NCBI GenBank assembly: GCA_963741625.1
Contig: CAVUIT010000001.1
Coordinates: 93,711 to 157,710 of the forward strand
Reading direction: 5' to 3'
DNA length: 64,000 nt
Source: an uncultured delta proteobacterium
GTDB taxonomy: Bacteria; Desulfobacterota; Desulfomonilia; Desulfomonilales; Desulfomonilaceae
A program made the position numbers and the translations under genes. The notes beneath the pieces were generated by a model that saw only the letters and a program-made list of their open reading frames with translations, had not been told where the DNA came from and ran no database searches. This document shows, piece by piece, positions 23,586 to 40,814 of the stretch; the stretch's first letter is position 1, and every line of letters begins with the position of its first letter.

Positions 23586-23615
23586 TTGCAGAGATGTCCC
23601 CATTTGGGGTATAAT
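23586..23615 (+). promoter_or_regulatory. Sigma70-like promoter with overlapping palindromic operators for the MNT/HEPN pair
   Basis: TTGCAG-18 nt-TATAAT. Palindromes CCCCATTTGGGG (in the spacer) and CCCCATTATGGGG (over ATG 23626). Confidence 0.5.
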
Positions 23616-23625
23616 CAGCCCCATT

Positions 23626-24246
23626 ATGGGGACAGCGTCAGACAACCTCAGTTCAGCATTGTTCGGAAAAGTCCGATCTTCGGTGCTTGCGCTCCTCTTC
23701 TGCCATTACGAGAAATCTTTCTACTTCCGGGAAATAGAACGATCCGTCGGCATGGGACGGGGAGCAGTCCAGCGAAACTGGAAAATCTTGTCAATGCCGG
23801 ATTGATTGTCCGGCGGAAACAAGGGAACCAAGTTTACTATCAAGCCAACGCCAAATCAGCGATTTTTTCTGAACTCAAATCCATGATGATCAAGACCGCC
23901 GGAGTGGCCGATGTGCTACGGGAAGCACTGATACCTTTTGCGCAGACGAATAACAACGGCATTCATCTATGGTTCGCTCGCCAAAGGAACTGCGACTGCC
24001 GACAGTGACGTGGATGTTCTGTTATAGGGGATTTGGCGTTTTCAGAGGTCGTTGATCTTCTGGGATCGGCTCAGGAGTCCATAGGGACGAGAGGTCAACC
24101 CTTCCGTCTATCCGGTGGACGAGTTTGTCACAAAGATTTCGCAGGGACAGCATTTCGTCACTTCGCTCATTGACGAGCCGAAAATCTTCCTCATTGGAGA
24201 CGAGGATGTCTTTGGGAGACTGGTTGAGAAACGGCTGGCTCGTTGA
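23626..24246 (+). pseudogene. wHTH + minimal nucleotidyltransferase (MNT-type antitoxin), about 4 frameshifts
   Basis: Pieces read MGTASDNLSSALFGKVRSSVLALLF / NLENLVNAGLIVRRKQGNQVYY / AFIYGSLAKGTATADSDVDVL / IGDLAFSEVVDLLGSAQESIG / EVNPSVYPVDEFVTKISQGQHFVTSLIDEPKIFLIGDE in shifting frames. Confidence 0.65.
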
Positions 24247-24653
24247 ACACACGACCAGCCCGCGGAGATTGGCGAGCTGCTGGCGATAGCAGATCGAGAT
24301 CTCGCTGATTGCCGGGTACAAGGCCTCAGTCCTGAGTGGAGACTCAATATAGCCTATAACGCCGCTCTCCAGGCGTCAACGGCGGCATTGGCCGCCTGTG
24401 GATACCGGCTTCCAGAGAAGCTCATCATTATAGGGTCATTCAGAGCCTCGCTCTAACCATCGGGGCAGATGCCAGCCTGGTGAGACAGTTCGATTTGTTC
24501 CGGAAAAAGAGAAATATTGGAGGCTATGAGCGGGCTGGAACGGTGTCGGATAAAGAGGCAAATGAAATGATAGCCCTCGCTGAGCAGATCCGCAGGGAAG
24601 TGAGAGACTGGCTGGTTTCTTATCACCCCGATCTTGTTGTGTTTGAGCTGTGA
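24243..24653 (+). pseudogene. HEPN-domain toxin partner, about 2 frameshifts
   Basis: AEIGELLAIADRDLADCRVQGLSPEWRLNIAYNAALQASTAALAACGYR then REAHHYRVIQSLALTIGADASLVRQFDLFRKKRNIGGYE... Confidence 0.6.
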
Positions 24654-24748
24654 TTCCGGGGACACTACGCCTATTTCGGCTTACGACCGCGAATTAGGTA
24701 AGGTGTCCCCAGAATTCACAGAATTCAGTCCCCAGAATTCCCCGAAAC
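24654..24748 (+). repeat. Miniature element made only of R1-family ends (one left-type end, two tandem right-type ends)
   Basis: TTCCGGGGACACTACGCC ... GGTGTCCCCAGAATTCACAGAATTCAGTCCCCAGAATTCCCCGAAAC. Confidence 0.5.
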
Positions 24749-24789
24749 TCTATAAGACACCAGACTGGAAACGAAATGCGCCTCAACTC

Positions 24790-24879
24790 ATTGATAAAAA
24801 CGGGTTTACTCGAAGACGGAAGCAGCGTATTATCTGGAAGCAAAACCCTAGGGCGGGTTTACCTGTAAACCGTCTAAAC
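24790..24879 (+). repeat. R2 repeat, copy 1
   Basis: ATTGATAAAAA..GTTTACyCGAAGACGGAAGCAGCGTATTATCTGGAAGCAAAAC...GGGTTTA..AAACC.TCTAAAC, shared with 40689-40777. Confidence 0.7.
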
Positions 24880-24903
24880 GGAAGTTGGATTGCATAGGTG
24901 AGG

Positions 24904-26134
24904 ATGTCAGTGGACTGGATAGTCGTGAACAAGGAGTGGCTCTTCAGCGGCTTACTGGTCGCGATCCCCATTGGCTTGTTTGGTGGTTCTTTCACGGAGG
25001 AACCTCCATCGTTCCCAGGTTCAAAGATCGGGAGACAATTCGATCAATGTCCAAGCGGGCGGAAACATCAACTTTGGAAGCGGCGTGAAGGATGAGCGAT
25101 CAGACGCAAAAAGCCGGGGATAACTCAACGAACATCCAAGCCGGAAGTATCACAGTGCATCAGGGTCTTCGGTTACGGAAGTGAGGCAAATCGCCCTGGA
25201 CCTATTAGAGCGAACTTTTTCGAGCTCGCGGGTGATGCAAGGAATATTGCCCGCCAGCGAGCAGAGGAAGTTACAGAGAGATTTCTCAGGCAACTGCAAC
25301 AAGAGCATGAGGATGGTCTTAAGCAGGCGCAGGAACCTGATTTTCAATACTCTCTCTTGACAGTCCAGACAGAATACGCACGCTGCGGCGATAAAGAACT
25401 TGGCGACCTCCTGGTAGATCTGCTCGTCGATCGAACAAAGCACGAATCACGAAGCATCCTGCAAATTGTCCTGAACGAATCGCTTTCAGTCGCACCAAAG
25501 CTCACACCGGATCAACTCGCAGCGGTTAGCCTAATCTTTCTCTTCAGGTACACCATCAACCATGGGATACGGAACCATGAGACGTTGTGGGAATATCTTG
25601 ATCGACATGTTGCACCATTCGCTGAACTAATCAGTGACAAAGACGCTTGTTATCAACATCTCCAATACTCGGGGTGCGGAACAGTGGGCCTTGTTAAGGT
25701 GGATCTTGTGGATGTATTTAAACAGACATACGGTGGCCTCTTTTCAAACGGTTTTGACCGAAACCCAATTCCAAGGGAAGCAGTTGGCCGTGCCCTTGTC
25801 GCATCCCATATTCCTACCATGTCTGAACGACAACACACGCCGCCAAGTCAACGGAATCAATGAGGAAGTGATTCGTTCAGAATGTAAGCGCCTGGAATTG
25901 TCTGACGATGACATAAGTAAAATAGTAGGCCTTCATAACGAAACGCTCATGAACGCTCGACGAATTCAATAAGCAAATCATCGATGCCGCGCAGACATGC
26001 GCCGGATATTTGAGGTATGGTCAGCATCAAGTATGAGTCAGTTCACTCTCACGAGTGTGGGCATTGCAATTGGCCATGCCAACGTTAAGAAAAACGTAGG
26101 TGAGTTCACAGACTTGGCAATTTGGATTAACTAG
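24904..26134 (+). pseudogene. LPO_1073/Vpar_1526-like hypothetical protein (N-terminal TM helix, GDNSxNxQAG repeats), at least 5 frameshifts
   Basis: MSVDWIVVNKEWLFSGLLVAIPIGLFG / GDNSINVQAGGNINFG / QKAGDNSTNIQAGSITV / TVQTEYARCGDKELGDLLVDLLVDRTK... / FTLTSVGIAIGHANVKKNVGEFTDLAIWIN. Family assignment is from memory. Confidence 0.5.
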
Positions 26135-26173
26135 TCAAATGCAATCTAACTAGCCGCTGCGTAATGCGCAGCG

Positions 26174-26405
26174 TAATCGGGGCAGATAATACACAATCTT
26201 TTGTTGACGCTTCAGGCGCTTCTTCTCACCACTGTTTTATAGTTTGTAGCTCGATCAAGTTGGTCCCCAGCTATCTCCACCAGGGCACGCAGCGTGGTGC
26301 TCAGTTGATGGGACTTATTTCATTCCGCGGGACCTCAACATTGAACACCGGGAAATCCACCGGAAGCCGCTGCCGCAAAAAAACGGTATTATGTCCCTCG
26401 AAATC
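26174..26405 (+). repeat. R1 repeat copy A (most diverged left end)
   Basis: Aligns end to end with copy D. Left TAATCGGGGCAGATAAT, right GGTATTATGTCCCTCGAAATC. Confidence 0.9.
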
Positions 26406-26461: not shown

Positions 26462-27169
26462 CTACTGGGGCAACTGCCAGAATGGCCCAGTCTTTCCGAT
26501 TTCCTCAAGGGTGGCCGGTACCTCATGGAAGTACTCGCTGCTGCGGGCTAACCAATCGTCGTCAAGACGCCTGCGAAAGAATTTCCCTGAGAAAAGTCGG
26601 AGCACGTCCTTGAGAGGGATAATTCCTTCAGCGGTCGCGGAATCAAATTGAGACCAATTCCTTACATGCTCTTCCGACCGGAAGAGATTCATTGTGCTTC
26701 AGGTGTGCGCCCAGTCTTCCATCCATTTCCGCAACGGGACTGAAACATAACCCACTATTTCCTCCGGTTCGATTTTCACGAAATCCCCATCAGACACTTC
26801 CACAGACACTGGATCGCCGCAATCTAAACACACACTATCAATTCGGATGGTCTTGCCCGGAAACAGCCAGCAAACTGCCAGCGATTCAAATCCTCATTGA
26901 CCAAACCATTTTTGCTTGCCATCAATGGTGATCCTATACTGAGTCGGAACATTACTGAAGGGCGCAAAGGAAGCTATCAGACTCGTATTGGGGTAGAGCC
27001 AACAACCAGGAATCTTTAGGTCGATCAGTTCATGGAGTCTTTGTCGGCCTTCGTCCGGTGATACTCCCAAGTCCTTCGCGATGTCCGTGTAATGGGGTGC
27101 GTGACCAGTGTCTATCAGCCCCCTCATAATGATTTGGAACGTCTTACCAAGCTGTGCTGGATCAGCCAT
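26462..27169 (-). CDS. Alkylmercury-lyase (MerB)-family protein, candidate selenoprotein with Sec at codons 92 and 157
   Basis: ORFs 26894..27169 and 26462..26692 are in the same frame. The intervening 201 nt is open except TGA 26894-26896 and TGA 26699-26701. Motifs WFGQ-U-GFES and HT-U-STMNLFRSEEHVRNW. Confidence 0.7.
26669..26686 (-). promoter_or_regulatory. SECIS-like hairpin downstream of the second UGA
   Basis: CUCUUCC-GGUC-GGAAGAG: perfect 7-bp stem, GGUC loop, starts 13 nt after the UGA. Confidence 0.6.
26852..26874 (-). promoter_or_regulatory. Weaker SECIS-like hairpin downstream of the first UGA
   Basis: UUUGCUGG-CUGUUU-CCGGGCAAG: 8 pairs including 2 G-U and one bulged G, 20-42 nt after the UGA. 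Confidence 0.35.
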
Positions 27170-27234
27170 AAGTCACCCCCCAATTCATTTGATTCGGCGG
27201 AACTGCCTTTGGGTATCATTATACCGTCGGGAAC

Positions 27235-27260: not shown

Positions 27261-27270
27261 CTGGTGTACG

Positions 27271-27501
27271 TAATCGGGGGACATAATGCCAATAATGTGT
27301 TGACCTGTCAGGTGCTTTTTCTTACCACTGCCTTATCGTTTGTAGCTCGAGCAGATTGGTCCCCAGCTATCTCGACCATGGCACGCAGCGTGGTGTTCGG
27401 TCGATAGGACCTATTTTCATTCGCGGGACCTGAACACTGAACACCGGGAAATCCACTGGAAGCCGCTGCCGCAAAAAAACGGTATTATGTCCCCCGAAAT
27501 C
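27271..27501 (+). repeat. R1 repeat copy B
   Basis: About 94% identical to copy D. TIRs TAATCGGGGGACATAATGCC / GGTATTATGTCCCCCGAAATC. Confidence 0.9.
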
Positions 27502-27653: not shown

Positions 27654-29433
27654 TCAAGACCCTGATACCGGCTCGTAGGGCCGCTTCATCGTCGGCGGGG
27701 CGAACAGCCTTAAAAATTTCCCAAAGGCAATTGCGCTCCCTGGGTTGTATTCGAAGCCTGCCAGGGCCCTCAGCGGGTTGCGGATTTTGGCCAACATCTC
27801 CTTCCAAGCCCCGGAGTCCGCGGTCACCTTGAGGTCCAGGTTCATGCGCTCCAGGTCTTGGATGGAACGTGGCCGTATTTCCGCCACGCCGTGTCGCACG
27901 TGAATGGTGAAAGCTTCTCTGGCGTCGGGAAAGACCATCCCAACTATTTGATTCACCTCGGCAGCGGCCTTGGGATCCAGGTTGACGGCCAACGACTCCA
28001 TGAAGCTCTGCACAGGAATGCGATGGACCGCCTCGGGCGAAGGTTTGGCCGTGGTGCGAGACACGAAGCCGTCTCGGATTTCCAGAGCCTCGCTGAGGTA
28101 ATAGTTTCGGGCATTCGGGTTTTGTTCTTTTTCAGCGAGGGCTGTCAGGGCCCTGATCCGAACGTCTTTGGCTTCCTGGTTTTCGGGGTTGAGTTGAATT
28201 AGGTTGTCGGTGAGCTGCAAGGCCGCTTGATACTGTTTCTCTTCCAAAAGCTCCCGAGCATGCCGGAGCAGTTCCTTTTCTCCTCCCGCCAACCTGGCCA
28301 TGAGCTTGGCTTGCTCCTTGCGGGTCAGAGGCTCGAGGTCGGCCGAATCGCCGTCAAACCAGCCCAGGGTTCCCGTAAACATGGAACGTACCGACCAGGA
28401 GACTTTGCCGTAAAAAGGCTGGAGGTACGGCTCCTCTGCCAGGTGAGGCGGCAGCTTAATGTATTCGGCCATTTCATCCGGAGTCAGGCCCGCGTTGATA
28501 CACCGGATGGATTGATCGTGGACGTATTGAATCGCGTCCCGGTAATTGGTGAGGATTTCCTGGATCTTCTGGGCACCGATGATCGGGCGGGTGTGGCATG
28601 GTACCAGATATTGCGGATTCAGGTCCCGCATCTTGTCCACGCTTTGGTACCAGTGCTTAAGGTTGCGGAAGCTTGTACCTCGGATAGTATAGAGATTGGG
28701 AAAAGCCCAGTAGTAATTGTCTCCGGCGATCAGCGTCTTCTGCTCGGGCAGCCAGACCATGATGTGATCGTCAGTTTCGCCTGGGGCATAGATCAGCTTG
28801 AACTTGACCCCGGCTTCTTCCGCTTCCAGCGTATCGGCAAAGATCTTAGTGGGTCGGACAAAGCCGAGCTTGCTGTCGGGCTTCATTCCGACAAAGGGTC
28901 CAACACCCACGTTGAGCACCTGACCAGGGGCGAGAAAGTTGCCGTAATCCGCGATGACCGTGAACCGATGATAGGTCCGATCTCAGTGAAGAGCCGTTTG
29001 ACTTGATCCTGAGTGGTCTCGTGAGCGTAGACCTCGGGCTTTCCTCCAGCCGTGAAGACCTCCGCGCCGAAGACATGGTCGGGATGAGAATGGGTATAAA
29101 TGATCGCCTTGACCGGTTTGGAGGTAATCTTCCTGAATTCGGCCAGGACTTCGGCTGCTTCTTCCATAGTGGTCATGGTGTCAACGATGATCACCCCGTC
29201 TGGCCTTCGATCATGATGCAATTTGAGATGCCGTAACCGATGGCCACGTAGAGGTTGTCGCCAACCTTTTCCACGCCTTTCCGGAATATCTTGCTATGCT
29301 CCTCCAGGGACTTGTTCGCACCAACCGGGATCGGAGCGTGAGCTTTCTTGACCGAGCGGCCGGCATAGAACCAAACCCCAGCCAGCCCTACCACCACGAT
29401 AACGAGGACGCCGGCGAGAATCATCTTGAGCAT
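27654..29433 (-). pseudogene. Alkyl/aryl-sulfatase (MBL-fold, SdsA1/BDS1-like, SCP2-like C-terminus) with N-terminal TM anchor; two frameshifts (~29205 and ~28900-28960)
   Basis: Three consecutive ORFs (29191..29577, 28883..29221, 27654..28919) read MLKMILAGVLV... / IYTHSHPDHVFG / APGETDDHIMVWLP... in order. Confidence 0.75.
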
Positions 29434-29663
29434 GAACGGACTCCCTGCAACTTGATTGGGGAGACCGGTAATACCGCGGTGGCAAAACCGGGTCAAGCAT
29501 CGACAAAGCCTCAAACTCAAAGTAGTTGCCAAGACGTCTTTCCATTCCAAGTGGCTGAAACAATACATCCTATCCAACTTCCCGCCTGTATACCAAGCCC
29601 CAGGAATGTTGCCGCACTCCGGCAGTCTTACTTAGGAAGATGGTTCGGTCGGTCGTCCAGGCT

Positions 29664-29894
29664 TAATCGGGGGACATAACACCAATATTGTGTTGACGTG
29701 TCAGGTGCTTTTTCTTACCACTGCTTTATCGTTTGTAGCTCCAGCAGGTTGGTCCCCAGCTATCTCTACCCGGCACGCAGCGTGGTTTTCAGTCGATGGG
29801 ACCTATTTTCATTCGGCGGGACATGAACATTGAACACCGGGAAATCCACCGGAAGCCGCTGCCGCAAAAAAATGGTATTATGTCCCCAGAAATC
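29664..29894 (+). repeat. R1 repeat copy C
   Basis: Full-length alignment to copy D. Central palindrome TGAC-gt-GTCA. Confidence 0.9.
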
Positions 29895-32772: not shown

Positions 32773-33249
32773 CGGTGACTCTCTAAACCTAAGCGATACG
32801 ATCATGCGTTGTGACAATCTGATCAGCTCTATATCGCTTGCACTTGAGGCGAAGTCATTTCACGAGCTGCGATGAGAATACCCTCACCGGTTAGCAAGCT
32901 ACGTTCATTTCTCTCGGAGGTGAGGAGTTTGAAGTTCTGGGTATAGTAGTGAAGAGGACCCAACAAGTTCGCGAGGGTAATAAAAGCCAAGGATTGCCAA
33001 CTCAGGAAGACCTGGCGTCGAACCTCTGTCCAAAATAACTCGAGCAGAATTGATAAGTGATGTGAGATTTACCATTTAGTGAGCTCCTTTCAATCTTCAC
33101 TATAAGTTTGACATCCGACTTAAGCCAGAGTTCCCAGGTGGGCAAGGATTTCTTGGAGGTCACCGATTCTGTGGGGAAAGCAGATCTGTCTAAGGTACTG
33201 AGTCACGCGGACGTACAGAGACAGACGTCGCGTATGGAGCCTTGCAGCG

Positions 33250-33481
33250 TAATCGGGGGACATAACACCAATATTGTGTTGACATGTCAGGTGCTTTTTC
33301 TTACCACTGCTTTATCGTTTGTAGCTCGAGCAGGTTGGTCCCCGGCTATCTCCACCATGGCACGCAGCGTGGTGTTCAGTCGATGGGACCTATTTTCATT
33401 CCGCGGGACATGAACATTGAACACCGGGAAATCCACTGGAAGCCGCTGCCGCAAAAAAACGGTATTATGTCCCCCGAAATT
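33250..33481 (+). repeat. R1 repeat copy D (used here as reference)
   Basis: TAATCGGGGGACATAACACC...GGTATTATGTCCCCCGAAATT. Internal 8-bp helix GGTGTTCA...TGAACACC. Confidence 0.9.
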
Positions 33482-33498: not shown

Positions 33499-34238
33499 AT
33501 GGCGATGTGGCGAAGAGACACGTTGAGATCGAGGTTTTTGCGATCCCTCATCCCTGAAAGAATACCCTGGTTTGCTGCCCGCCTATACGACCAAATTGCC
33601 CGCAGCGCAATCGAGACCTACTACAAGGGAGTGGCCGAGCTTGTCACGGCCCACCAAGTCAAGGATTGGTCTTGGATATTGGTACCGGTCCGGGATATCT
33701 CCCCATTGAGATCGCCAAGAGGGCACCCCGGATCACAGTAGTTGGAATCGACTCGTCAAAAGCACTGGTGCGGATAGCTCAAAAAAATGCGAAGAGGGAG
33801 GGCCTGTCGGATCGAGTCCGATTCGTGAAATGCGATGGCAACAGGCTCGACTTTGCAGATGATTCATACGACCTGGTGATCAGCACGGGTTCCCTCCATG
33901 CGTGGAAAAATCCGGTGCTAGTAATCAACGAATGCTTCAGGGTCCTGAAAGCTGGGTGTGAAGCCTGGTTATTGGATCCGGCACAGATCATCACCCCGGA
34001 GGCTCAGCAGCTCCTGGGGAGAGGCCTCAATGCGGTGGACAGGCTTGCTAACTGGTGGGGCTCTTTCACTTCCAAGCTCACGCCACCCTACACTGTAAGG
34101 GAGGTTGAGGAGATTATCCGCCGGACAAATTTTAAGAAAGGGACCGTTGCGGAAGGAAAATGGCTTACCGTCAAGCTGAAAAAGCATGCCAGTCCGGCAA
34201 CCGAAGCTCATCAGCGACCTCATCGTAATCAACGTTGA
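33499..34238 (+). CDS. Class I SAM-dependent methyltransferase, one frameshift (~33665)
   Basis: ORF 33499..33741 joins ORF 33666..34238 at motif I VLDIGTGPGYL. The stop TGA overlaps the first bases of R1-E. Confidence 0.75.
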
Positions 34239-34467
34239 ATCGGGGACATAACACCAATATTGTGTTGACACGTCAGGTGCCTTTTCTTACCACTGCTTTA
34301 TCGTTTGTAGCTCGAGCAGGTTGGTCCCCAGCTATCTCCACCATGGCACGCAGCGTGGTGTTCAGTCGATGGGACTTATTTTCGTTCGCGGGACATGAAC
34401 ATTGAACACCGGGAAATCCGACTGGAAGCCGCTGCCGCAAAGAACTGCTATTTGGTCCCCCGAAATC
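34237..34467 (+). repeat. R1 repeat copy E
   Basis: Full length. Right end diverged (GCTATTTGGTCCCCCGAAATC). Confidence 0.9.
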
Positions 34468-36403: not shown

Positions 36404-36449
36404 TTCGAGCCTTCCTTTTGACCCGATCATACTTATTGGAAGGTGTGCG

Positions 36450-36681
36450 TGATCGGGGGACATGATACCAATATCGTGTTGACATGTCAGGTGCTTTTTT
36501 TTACCACTGCTTTATCGTTTGCAGAGCAAACTGGTTGGTCCCCGGCTATCTCCACCCTGGCACGCAGCGTAGTGTTCAGTTGATGAGACTTATTTTTCTT
36601 TGGCGGGACCGGAACATTGTACGCCGGGAAATCCACTGGAAGCCGCTGCCGCAAAAAAACCGTATTATGTCCTCCAAAATC
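36450..36681 (+). repeat. R1 repeat copy F
   Basis: Full length, about 87% identical to D. Preceded by an ATACTTATTGG solo-end fragment (36420-36439). Confidence 0.9.
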
Positions 36682-40375: not shown

Positions 40376-40452
40376 TGGCTTACATCCGAAACCGGCCTTC
40401 TAAAACCGGCCTGGCCCCCCAAAACTGGTCCAGATTCTGAGTTAGGATTGAG

Positions 40453-40681
40453 TGATCGGGGGACACAATACCAATATTGTGCTGAGGGGAAGTGCTTTTT
40501 CTTACCACTCCTTTATCGTTTGTAGCTCGAGCAGGTTGATCCACAGCTATCTCTACATGGCACGCAGCGTGGGGTTCAGTCGATGGGACCTGTTTGCATT
40601 CGGCGGGATCTGAACTTTGAACTCCGGGAAATCCATTGGAAGCCGCCGTCGCAAGAGACCGGTATTATGCACCCAGAAATC
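40453..40681 (+). repeat. R1 repeat copy G (central palindrome replaced)
   Basis: Full length, about 80-85% identical to D. Confidence 0.85.
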
Positions 40682-40688
40682 ACAACCT

Positions 40689-40777
40689 ATTGATAAAAAA
40701 AGTTTACCCGAAGACGGAAGCAGCGTATTATCTGGAAGCAAAACGCGAAAGCGGGTTTATGTGGAAACCATCTAAAC
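40689..40777 (+). repeat. R2 repeat, copy 2
   Basis: See 24790-24879. It again sits between an R1-family right end and a gene for a TM protein. Confidence 0.7.
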
Positions 40778-40814
40778 AGCACTTCGACAAGAAGGCAGAT
40801 ATGACGAGAGATCG

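What the first reader, a model, noticed from the sequence alone, without database searches (positions are those of the whole stretch)
26462..27169. MerB-family ORF with two in-frame UGA codons at the two catalytic-Cys positions, each followed by a SECIS-like hairpin: candidate double-selenocysteine lyase
ORF-track pieces 26894..27169 and 26462..26692 are in the same frame. The 201 nt between them is open, so the 235-codon frame 27169->26462 is interrupted only by TGA at codon 92 (26896-26894) and codon 157 (26701-26699). The translation reads ...DGKQKWFGQ-U-GFESLAV... and ...EDWAHT-U-STMNLFRSEEHVRNW.... Characterised MerB uses Cys96, Asp99 and Cys159. Here the equivalents are U92, E95 and U157, with 65-residue spacing against 63. 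The second motif fits the family pattern C-x4-FF-x-S-x-EH-x-x-x-W. Thirteen nt after the second UGA lies CUCUUCC-GGUC-GGAAGAG, a perfect 7-bp stem with a GGUC apical loop like the E. coli fdhF SECIS. After the first UGA there is a weaker bulged 8-pair stem with a CUGUUU loop, 20-42 nt downstream. Every other gene disruption in this window is an indel. These two are in-frame changes at functionally equivalent sites. I do not know of a characterised enzyme in this family with Sec at both nucleophile positions.
Basis: partly seen in the sequence, partly recalled or inferred. Interest (0 to 1): 0.85.

Follow-up and report, generated by a model that had tools for sequence, protein, structure and literature searches.

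The report
Double-selenocysteine MerB-like lyase gene
This gene encodes a relative of the bacterial methylmercury-cleaving enzyme MerB in which both metal-gripping cysteines are replaced by selenocysteine, each inserted at a recoded UGA stop codon; the same arrangement is conserved in more than 160 sequences from other anaerobes and is missing from the current selenoprotein catalogue.

Summary
The minus-strand frame 27169->26462 is a 235-codon MerB-family ORF (Pfam PF03243, E=1.5e-22). It is interrupted only by TGA at codons 92 and 157, and these align with MerB Cys96 and Cys159.

It is not a pseudogene. Of 170 homologous loci fetched, 162 have TGA at both columns, always 64 codons apart, with an open and conserved frame beyond them. 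Rare homologues have Cys there instead.

Synonymous sites are saturated along the gene except in two troughs, codons 96-100 and 162-166. Each trough covers a hairpin starting 12-13 nt after a UGA, with a G(G/U)-containing loop that fits the bacterial SECIS consensus. The first is a different, nearer hairpin (26882-26866).

A natural Cys/Cys homologue models confidently as a MerB fold.

The family is neither canonical MerB nor SaoL, the known single-Sec (CU-motif) MerB-like selenoprotein. It has no conserved operon and is absent from a 2026 catalogue of 119 families.

Sec-decoding machinery, selenium incorporation and substrate could not be tested here.

Verdict: a real, widespread, uncatalogued double-Sec variant of a known kind.

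The parts
26462..27169 (-). MerB-like selenoprotein gene: 235 sense codons plus TAG stop; N-terminal winged-helix part followed by the MerB core
   Evidence: A natural Cys/Cys homologue models as a MerB fold. The window protein is 91% identical to those of L008 and L009.
27173..27180 (-). Shine-Dalgarno-like GGGGGUGA, 3 nt upstream of the ATG
   Evidence: Read directly from the sequence; function is inferred.
26894..26896 (-). UGA codon 92, read as Sec (U92); aligns with MerB Cys96
   Evidence: TGA at this column in 164 of 170 loci that cover it; Cys (TGC/TGT) in the others.
26885..26887 (-). GAA codon 95 (Glu95), invariant; aligns with the MerB proton donor Asp99
26866..26882 (-). SECIS 1: GCUGGCA-GUU-UGCUGGC, +12..+28 after UGA1. 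Most homologues have GCUGGC-GGUCU-GCUGGC.
   Evidence: Synonymous entropy collapses at codons 96-100. 95.7% of cells are paired. The hairpin is degraded in several forms with Cys at site 1.
26819..26830 (-). Codons 114-117, invariant C-L-D-C motif; possible second thiol pair, role unknown
   Evidence: Invariant in alignments A1, A3 and A4. Synonymous sites vary freely here, so the constraint is on the protein.
26699..26701 (-). UGA codon 157, read as Sec (U157); aligns with MerB Cys159
   Evidence: TGA in 166 of 168 loci that cover it. 117 of the top 120 protein clusters have UGA here.
26669..26686 (-). SECIS 2: CUCUUCC-GGUC-GGAAGAG, +13..+30 after UGA2
   Evidence: Codons 162-166 are almost fixed as CTC TTC CGG TCG GAA in the unique U/U sequences analysed (151, 145). 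96.1% of cells are paired, with 2 pairs showing double changes. Core MFE is -9.1 kcal/mol. The hairpin is intact in every homologue that keeps UGA2 and decays in Cys/Cys forms.
27268..27501 (-). Upstream copy of a ~235-nt repeat that brackets the gene
26172..26405 (-). Downstream copy of the same ~235-nt repeat

Best explanation
The ORF is a functional gene for a 235-residue MerB-fold protein made by two selenocysteine insertions.

Recoding (inferred from the established bacterial mechanism). As the ribosome reaches each UGA, a hairpin whose stem begins 12-13 nt downstream recruits SelB-GTP-Sec-tRNA(Sec). The hairpins are 26882-26866 and 26686-26669. Each has a 6-7 bp stem and a GGUC, GGUCU or GUU loop that starts 18-19 nt after the UGA. 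The codon is therefore read as Sec rather than stop.

Protein (homology shown, chemistry inferred). The product places two selenolates (U92, U157) and an invariant carboxylate (E95) where MerB has Cys96, Cys159 and Asp99. By analogy it should bind a soft metal(loid) centre of an organometallic substrate between the two Se atoms and protonate the leaving carbon through Glu95. That is a protonolytic carbon-metal lyase, with methylmercury-type compounds the most obvious substrates.

Context. The gene stands alone with no mer operon, so any release or hand-off of the bound metal must differ from MerB-to-MerA transfer. The invariant C114-x-D-C117 motif is a candidate acceptor.
For: Shown here:
- MerB family and fold.
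- Both TGAs are conserved in 162 of 170 loci, always 64 codons apart, with no other stops and 76-90 further codons before the true stop.
- Cys sits at the same columns in rare homologues.
- The protein is conserved after each UGA while synonymous sites are saturated. Majority-residue fractions are 0.79, 0.76 and 0.72 for the three segments. G182 is invariant and uses all four codons.
- The eight lowest synonymous-entropy columns of 163 all lie in codons 96-100 or 162-166.
- Both hairpins meet the published bSECIS constraints on loop, stem and spacing (PMC13188914).
- Hairpin 2 is intact wherever UGA2 is kept. Hairpin 1 is degraded in 5 of 9 forms with Cys at site 1, only partly in L172.
- TGA is the ordinary stop for 27 of 41 long ORFs in the window.

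From the literature:
- Desulfomonile tiedjei, in the family of the closest relatives, has a Sec-containing selD and another selenoprotein (PMC5389517; Haft & Gwadz).
- Selenium nucleophiles cleave Hg-C bonds faster than their sulfur analogues (PMC11639659).
Against: - No selA, selB, selC or selD was seen in the window or in any of the held loci, and the rest of the genome was not available.
- Rfam has no matching SECIS model.
- Covariation is weak because the stems hardly vary: not significant for hairpin 1 and marginal for hairpin 2.
- Hairpin 1 persists in four forms with Cys at site 1, so part of its conservation could be inheritance or protein constraint.
- No operon context points to a substrate.
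- A diselenolate should bind Hg(II) very tightly, which argues against fast turnover with mercury.
Confidence: 0.85

Rival explanations
1. The UGAs and hairpins are real recoding signals, but in some hosts they are read as cysteine. The proposed route is the SelC-like tRNA(Cys) with a UCA anticodon plus the SelB paralogue described in Syntrophobacterales and Desulfobacterales. The protein would then be Cys/Cys, or a mixture that depends on selenium supply.
For: PMC5389517 reports selC* tRNA(Cys) genes, some carrying an opal (UCA) anticodon, next to a second selB in exactly these orders. Many of the U/U loci come from these lineages. Cys is functionally tolerated at both sites in natural homologues.
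Against: The paper found the complete selA-D apparatus in all genomes that carry selC. Keeping UGA at both sites in 162 loci, against very few TGC/TGT, implies an advantage over simply encoding Cys. This was not tested for the window's genome.
Confidence: 0.07
2. Selenium-gated expression: termination at UGA1 or UGA2 is the main outcome. The 91-residue winged-helix fragment or the 156-residue fragment is the principal product, and full-length protein is a minor one.
For: Bacterial Sec insertion is generally inefficient (established knowledge), and two sites compound this. The N-terminal 91 residues form a separate helical domain in the model.
Against: The segments after each UGA are as conserved as the first one (0.76 and 0.72 against 0.79) and carry invariant residues. 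The catalytic pair needs both segments. Truncated products may exist but cannot explain this conservation.
Confidence: 0.05
3. The gene is a pseudogene with two nonsense mutations, or the TGAs are sequencing or assembly errors.
For: The window carries other disrupted genes, for example the frameshifted alkyl sulfatase at 27654-29577.
Against: The same two TGAs occur in 162 independent loci from many assemblies and technologies, with an intact frame and purifying selection.
Confidence: 0.01
4. UGA is a sense codon (Trp or Gly) in this organism, as JGI and ENA gene calls imply by placing W at both sites.
For: About 53 of the top 120 database proteins show W at both positions.
Against: Those W residues are TGA in the DNA. 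TGA terminates 27 of 41 long ORFs in the window, and some homologues of this gene also end in TGA. The aligned residue in homologues and in MerB is Cys, not Trp.
Confidence: 0.01

Closest known systems
SaoL (NCBIfam NF040728), the MerB-like organometallic lyase selenoprotein of the SAO locus (Haft & Gwadz 2022, bioRxiv 10.1101/2022.07.06.499078)
   Same: Both belong to the MerB superfamily (PF03243). Both have Sec at the position of MerB Cys159. Both are found in anaerobes, and both are truncated at the UGA in sequence databases.
   Different: - SaoL has one Sec, in a CU dipeptide, and keeps Cys and Asp at the positions of MerB Cys96 and Asp99. This family has Sec at both nucleophile positions (or Cys...Sec), Glu instead of Asp, and no CU motif (T/A-U-S).
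- The window protein scores 52 bits against a cut-off of 140.
- There is no conserved nine-gene SAO neighbourhood.
Canonical organomercurial lyase MerB (EC 4.99.1.2; PDB 3F0O, 3F0P; MerB2 5C17)
   Same: The fold matches (Foldseek E about 1e-10, TM 0.58-0.69). The three active-site positions align.
   Different: - The triad is Sec/Glu/Sec instead of Cys/Asp/Cys.
- About 20% sequence identity.
- Scores of 36-39 bits against cut-offs of 193-200.
- No merA, merR, merT or merP neighbours.
- Extra invariant CxDC motif and a C-terminal helical extension.
Bacterial SECIS elements, e.g. E. coli fdhF (bSECIS consensus model, PMC13188914)
   Same: Each is an in-ORF hairpin just after the UGA with a small apical loop starting with G(G/U). 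The loops begin 18-19 nt after the UGA, and the loop is GGUC as recalled for fdhF.
   Different: The stems are short (6-7 bp) with no extended lower helix conserved. There are two separate elements in one ORF. No Rfam model matches.
Other double selenoproteins (e.g. MbdU NF045648, UxxU metal-binding protein, VhuD; Table 1 of PMC13188914)
   Same: They have two Sec residues per chain, and several are implicated in metal binding.
   Different: The folds are unrelated. In most of them the two Sec lie close together in the sequence, whereas here they are 65 residues apart and meet only in the folded active site. No NCBIfam hit to any of them.

Membership tests
Pfam MerB (PF03243) superfamily | HMM score above the gathering threshold | tested here: met
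   80.3 bits against 27, E=1.5e-22, residues 71-192.
Pfam MerB (PF03243) superfamily | MerB three-dimensional fold | tested here: met
   An AF2 model of the natural Cys/Cys homologue P0022 (55% identical to the window protein) has pLDDT 94. The only significant PDB matches are MerB and MerB2. The window protein itself could not be submitted.
Canonical organomercurial lyase MerB (NF033555 / NF009710) | Equivalog HMM score above the curated cut-off | tested here: not met
   36.2 bits against 200, and 38.8 against 193.
Canonical organomercurial lyase MerB (NF033555 / NF009710) | Cys96 / Asp99 / Cys159 catalytic triad | tested here: not met
   The aligned columns hold UGA, Glu and UGA. The residues are chemically analogous but not the defining ones.
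Canonical organomercurial lyase MerB (NF033555 / NF009710) | Location in a mer operon (merA, merR, merT, merP) | tested here: not met
   No neighbour family recurs in more than 17 of 168 loci. The window neighbours are an alkyl sulfatase and repeats.
Canonical organomercurial lyase MerB (NF033555 / NF009710) | Hg-C protonolysis activity | not testable with these tools
   Needs an enzyme assay.
SaoL (NF040728) | Equivalog HMM score of at least 140 bits | tested here: not met
   52.1 bits.
SaoL (NF040728) | CU dipeptide at the second nucleophile | tested here: not met
   The context is H-T-U-S in the window and mostly Y-A-U-S in homologues.
SaoL (NF040728) | Conserved SAO gene neighbourhood | tested here: not met
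   No conserved neighbourhood was found. Individual Sao families were not searched by HMM.
Bacterial selenoprotein gene | In-frame UGA aligned with Cys in homologues, with the ORF conserved downstream | tested here: met
Bacterial selenoprotein gene | [quoted passage not shown] | tested here: met
   7-bp stem, GGUC loop, 19 nt spacing, -9.1 kcal/mol. Criteria taken.
Bacterial selenoprotein gene | bSECIS after UGA1 (same criteria) | tested here: met
   7-bp stem with a GUU loop in the window; 6 bp with GGUCU in most homologues. Spacing is 18 nt. MFE is -6.9 for the 17-nt core and -9.3 for the 37-nt context, so the energy criterion is met only with flanks.
Bacterial selenoprotein gene | selA, selB, selC and selD present in the same genome | not testable with these tools
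   None was seen in the 64-kb window or in 1.7 Mb of held loci, and whole genomes could not be fetched. The literature shows a Sec system in Desulfomonile tiedjei.
Bacterial selenoprotein gene | Selenium actually incorporated | not testable with these tools
   Needs 75Se labelling or mass spectrometry.

The most novel reading that the evidence does not exclude
This uncatalogued double-selenocysteine MerB-like enzyme is widespread in the same anaerobic lineages that methylate mercury: Desulfomonilaceae, Syntrophales and Desulfobacterales, with Cys/Sec forms in Anaerolineae and Acidobacteriota. It could be a mer-operon-independent degrader or sequestering agent for methylmercury or other organometal(loid)s in anoxic sediments and soils. 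If so, it would be a missing player in net methylmercury budgets, hidden from merB surveys because gene callers truncate it.
Probability: 0.12. Interest if true: 0.9.

Novelty: new variant of a known kind. Interest (0 to 1): 0.62.

Why it matters
- Selenoprotein biology. The family would add an abundant entry to the prokaryotic selenoproteome. It is a rare case in which both members of a catalytic nucleophile pair are Sec, far apart in the sequence, each with its own SECIS.
- Mercury biogeochemistry. Surveys that identify merB by intact Cys96/Asp99/Cys159 would miss these genes, because NCBI records end at residue 155 or split into fragments and JGI/ENA records show W at both sites. The enzymes behind anaerobic, mer-independent methylmercury degradation are still unidentified (PMC10114901). 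A selenolate-based MerB relative in sulfate reducers and syntrophs is a concrete, testable candidate.
- Annotation. The two nearly invariant hairpins give a simple DNA signature for correcting hundreds of database entries.

Tried and rejected
- Rfam at gathering thresholds over the window and at E<=10 over 26600-26950 gave no SECIS or other credible family.
- tRNA scans of the window and all loci found no tRNA-Sec.
- Motif scans of six-frame translations of 1.7 Mb for SelA, SelD and SelB signatures gave only two spurious hits.
- Neighbourhood clustering of 168 loci found no conserved partner gene, so no operon-based functional inference is possible.
- Formal covariation counts were not significant for hairpin 1 and marginal for hairpin 2, because the stems barely vary. 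I therefore relied on synonymous-site constraint and the Cys-form contrast.
A natural Cys/Cys homologue was used instead.
- A metagenome scan meant to collect forms with Cys at site 1 returned almost only U/U forms. Cys forms had to be fetched one at a time, leaving only nine controls.
- A scan of the window for other TGA read-through candidates found no second selenoprotein gene.

Full report
**1. The observation**

- On the minus strand, the frame from ATG 27169 to TAG 26464-26462 has 235 sense codons. It is interrupted only by TGA at 26896-26894 (codon 92) and TGA at 26701-26699 (codon 157).
- With Cys placed at the two sites, the protein hits Pfam MerB PF03243 at E=1.5e-22 (80.3 bits, cut-off 27).
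- Pairwise and profile alignments to solved MerB and MerB2 chains place codon 92 on Cys96, Glu95 on Asp99 and codon 157 on Cys159. These are the active-site residues named by Haft & Gwadz.

**2. Not a pseudogene**

- A protein search returned 498 relatives.
- Full-length JGI/ENA entries carried W at both columns. NCBI, ENA and Logan entries of ~155 residues carried Cys at the first column and ended just before the second. Three clusters had Cys at both.
- Reading the DNA showed that the W residues are TGA, and that the 155-residue forms stop at a TGA followed by an open, homologous frame.
The best 80 loci are almost all MAGs of Thermodesulfobacteriota or 'delta proteobacteria'. Desulfomonilaceae are closest, at 84-91% identity.
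- A JGI metagenome scan gave 80 more loci.
- Of 170 loci and paralogues classified, 162 are TGA/TGA, 4 are Cys/TGA, 2 are Cys/Cys and 2 are cut off by the contig end. One further Cys/TGA locus, L170, was fetched afterwards. Four more Cys/TGA loci (L171-L174) were fetched afterwards.
- In every U/U locus there are exactly 64 codons between the TGAs, no other stop, and 76-90 codons before the true stop. The true stop is itself sometimes TGA.
- No form with Sec at site 1 and Cys at site 2 was seen.

**3. Translation continues past both UGAs**

- In 145 unique U/U coding sequences, the mean majority-residue fraction is 0.79 for codons 1-91, 0.76 for codons 93-156 and 0.72 for codons 158-235.
- Synonymous sites are saturated: the median ratio of observed to expected codon entropy is 0.94.
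- For example, G182 is invariant yet uses all four Gly codons about equally.
- This is purifying selection on the protein in all three segments.
- TGA is the normal stop for 27 of 41 long ORFs in the window. A code in which UGA is a sense codon is therefore excluded.

**4. Two SECIS elements**

- The same entropy scan shows two troughs and no others. The eight lowest of 163 informative columns are codons 100, 164, 165, 163, 96, 162, 166 and 97.
- After UGA2, codons 162-166 are essentially fixed as CTC TTC CGG TCG GAA. Arg is always CGG and Ser always TCG, each out of six possible codons.
  - They form CUCUUCC-GGUC-GGAAGAG, at window 26686-26669.
- After UGA1, codons 96-100 are TCG CTG GCR GTY TGC.
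  - They form GCUGGC-RGUYU-GCUGGC, at window 26882-26866.
- Both hairpins meet the published bacterial SECIS constraints quoted:
  - stems of 6-7 bp;
  - loops of 3-5 nt beginning with G followed by G or U;
  - 18 and 19 nt between the UGA and the loop;
  - MFE of -9.1 kcal/mol for hairpin 2. For hairpin 1 it is -6.9 for the core and -9.3 with flanks.
- Variation that does occur is mostly pair-preserving, such as G-U to A-U or C-G to U-G, plus one C-G to U-A double change. 96% of cells are paired, against 18-64% when the partners are slid.
- Formal covariation is only marginal for hairpin 2 and not significant for hairpin 1, because the stems hardly vary.
- The best control is internal.
  - All seven distinct Cys/UGA forms keep hairpin 2 perfectly.
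  - Hairpin 1 is retained in four forms with Cys at site 1 (L001, L117, L170, L174).
  - Hairpin 1 is degraded by synonymous and non-synonymous changes in L171 and L173, and partly in L172.
  - In the Cys/Cys forms hairpin 1 is broken in both; hairpin 2 is lost in L168 and partly retained (6 bp) in L169.
It is not the conserved element.
- Rfam has no matching model.

**5. The protein**

- AlphaFold2 on the natural Cys/Cys homologue P0022, with a 51-sequence alignment, gave pLDDT 94 and pTM 0.89.
- Its only significant PDB neighbours are MerB and MerB2, at E from 7e-11 to 2e-7 and TM 0.58-0.69.
- Invariant or near-invariant residues include E95, the C114-L-D-C117 motif, M160, F163, R164 and S165.
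- Part of the 'LFRSEEH' and 'SLAVCW' conservation is RNA-driven, because those codons are the SECIS stems.
- The mechanistic reading is inferred from homology and was not tested: two selenolates plus the Glu95 proton donor cleave a carbon-metal bond, as in MerB.

**6. Family membership**

- NCBIfam scores are far below the equivalog cut-offs: SaoL 52 against 140, and MerB 39 against 193 and 36 against 200.
- SaoL, described by Haft & Gwadz 2022, is the only MerB-like selenoprotein in the literature I could search. It has a single Sec in a CU motif at the Cys159 position and sits in a nine-gene SAO locus.
- The present family lacks the CU motif, and has Sec (or Cys) at the Cys96 position and Glu instead of Asp.
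- It has no conserved neighbour at all: the most frequent neighbouring family occurs in 17 of 168 loci.
- The May 2026 catalogue of 119 prokaryotic selenoprotein families lists only SaoL under MerB, and nothing that resembles this family.
- NCBI names its members 'hypothetical protein' or a truncated 'organomercurial lyase'.

**7. What could not be shown**

- No Sec machinery lies in the window or in the 1.7 Mb of loci held, and whole genomes could not be fetched.
- The literature shows a Sec-containing selD and other selenoproteins in Desulfomonile tiedjei.
- It also describes a tRNA(Cys) with a UCA anticodon, plus a SelB paralogue, in Syntrophobacterales and Desulfobacterales. A minority possibility remains that some hosts insert Cys at these UGAs.
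- Substrate and activity are unknown. A diselenolate should hold Hg(II) very tightly, so turnover with mercury is uncertain.

**8. Surroundings**

- The window is ordinary deltaproteobacterial chromosome, with fatty-acid metabolism, ABC transport and PAS histidine kinases.
- The gene is bracketed by two copies of a ~235-nt repeat with 15-nt terminal inverted repeats.
  - Seven same-orientation copies lie between 26172 and 40697, mostly with one gene between successive copies.
  - The same repeat-gene-repeat unit occurs in L009 and L013.

**9. Verdict**

- This is a real, conserved and widespread gene with two Sec-coding UGAs at the two MerB nucleophile positions, each with its own SECIS.
- It is a new variant of a known kind: MerB-like selenoproteins are known, but the double-Sec pair and this family are not catalogued.
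- Interest is moderate to high. It would rise sharply if the enzyme proves to act on methylmercury in anoxic environments.

Noticed in passing
window 26172-26405, 27268-27501, 29660-29894, 33247-33481, 34233-34466, 36447-36681, 40449-40681: There are seven same-orientation copies of a ~235-nt repeat, with 85% mean column identity and 15-nt terminal inverted repeats GGGGGACATAATACC...GGTATTATGTCCCCC. Each unit folds as one long imperfect hairpin and has no Rfam match. Mostly one gene or gene remnant lies between successive copies: the MerB-like gene, an alkyl sulfatase, a methyltransferase, GrpB and a PAS kinase. It could be MITE-like or a cassette-array boundary element. The same repeat-gene-repeat unit is in L009 and L013.
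   Followed up: partly
window 27654-29577 (-): The gene upstream of the MerB-like gene is an alkyl sulfatase (metallo-beta-lactamase, dimerisation and SCP2-like C-terminal domains). It is split into three overlapping ORFs in different frames (27654-28919, 28883-29221, 29191-29577), which suggests frameshifts or long-read indel errors.
   Followed up: partly
database proteins P0001-P0052 (JGI/ENA) and P0053-P0120 (NCBI, ENA, Logan): There is a systematic annotation artefact. Many JGI/ENA gene calls translate this family with UGA as Trp, giving W at both catalytic sites. Other pipelines truncate Cys/Sec forms at residue ~155 and split U/U forms into fragments of 91, 64 and 78 residues.
   Followed up: yes
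L061 (6032-6227 and 6912-7107); L065 (about 6537): L061 carries two adjacent U/U paralogues of the gene, about 880 bp apart and 57% and 61% identical to the window protein. L065 has a second, distant MerB-like match (34% identity) 3.7 kb upstream of its U/U copy.
   Followed up: no
window 24797-24889 and 40695-40787: A 93-nt direct repeat (83% identity) lies at the two outer edges of the repeat-rich region. One copy directly abuts the last 235-nt repeat.
   Followed up: no
window 23586-26160: The stretch downstream of the gene has only short ORFs. Two of them look, by eye, like toxin-antitoxin-type small genes (an HTH-like ORF at 23586-24008 and a possible HEPN-like ORF at 24480-24653). GC is lower here (0.50-0.52 against 0.55-0.57 in the left part of the window).
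   Followed up: no
codon 100 (window 26870-26872) and codons 162-167: Cys100 (always TGC, never TGT) and the LFRSEE motif look like conserved protein features. They sit inside the SECIS stems and change freely in Cys forms (C100 becomes T or S; E166/E167 become R, G or D). Their conservation is therefore at least partly an RNA constraint.
   Followed up: yes
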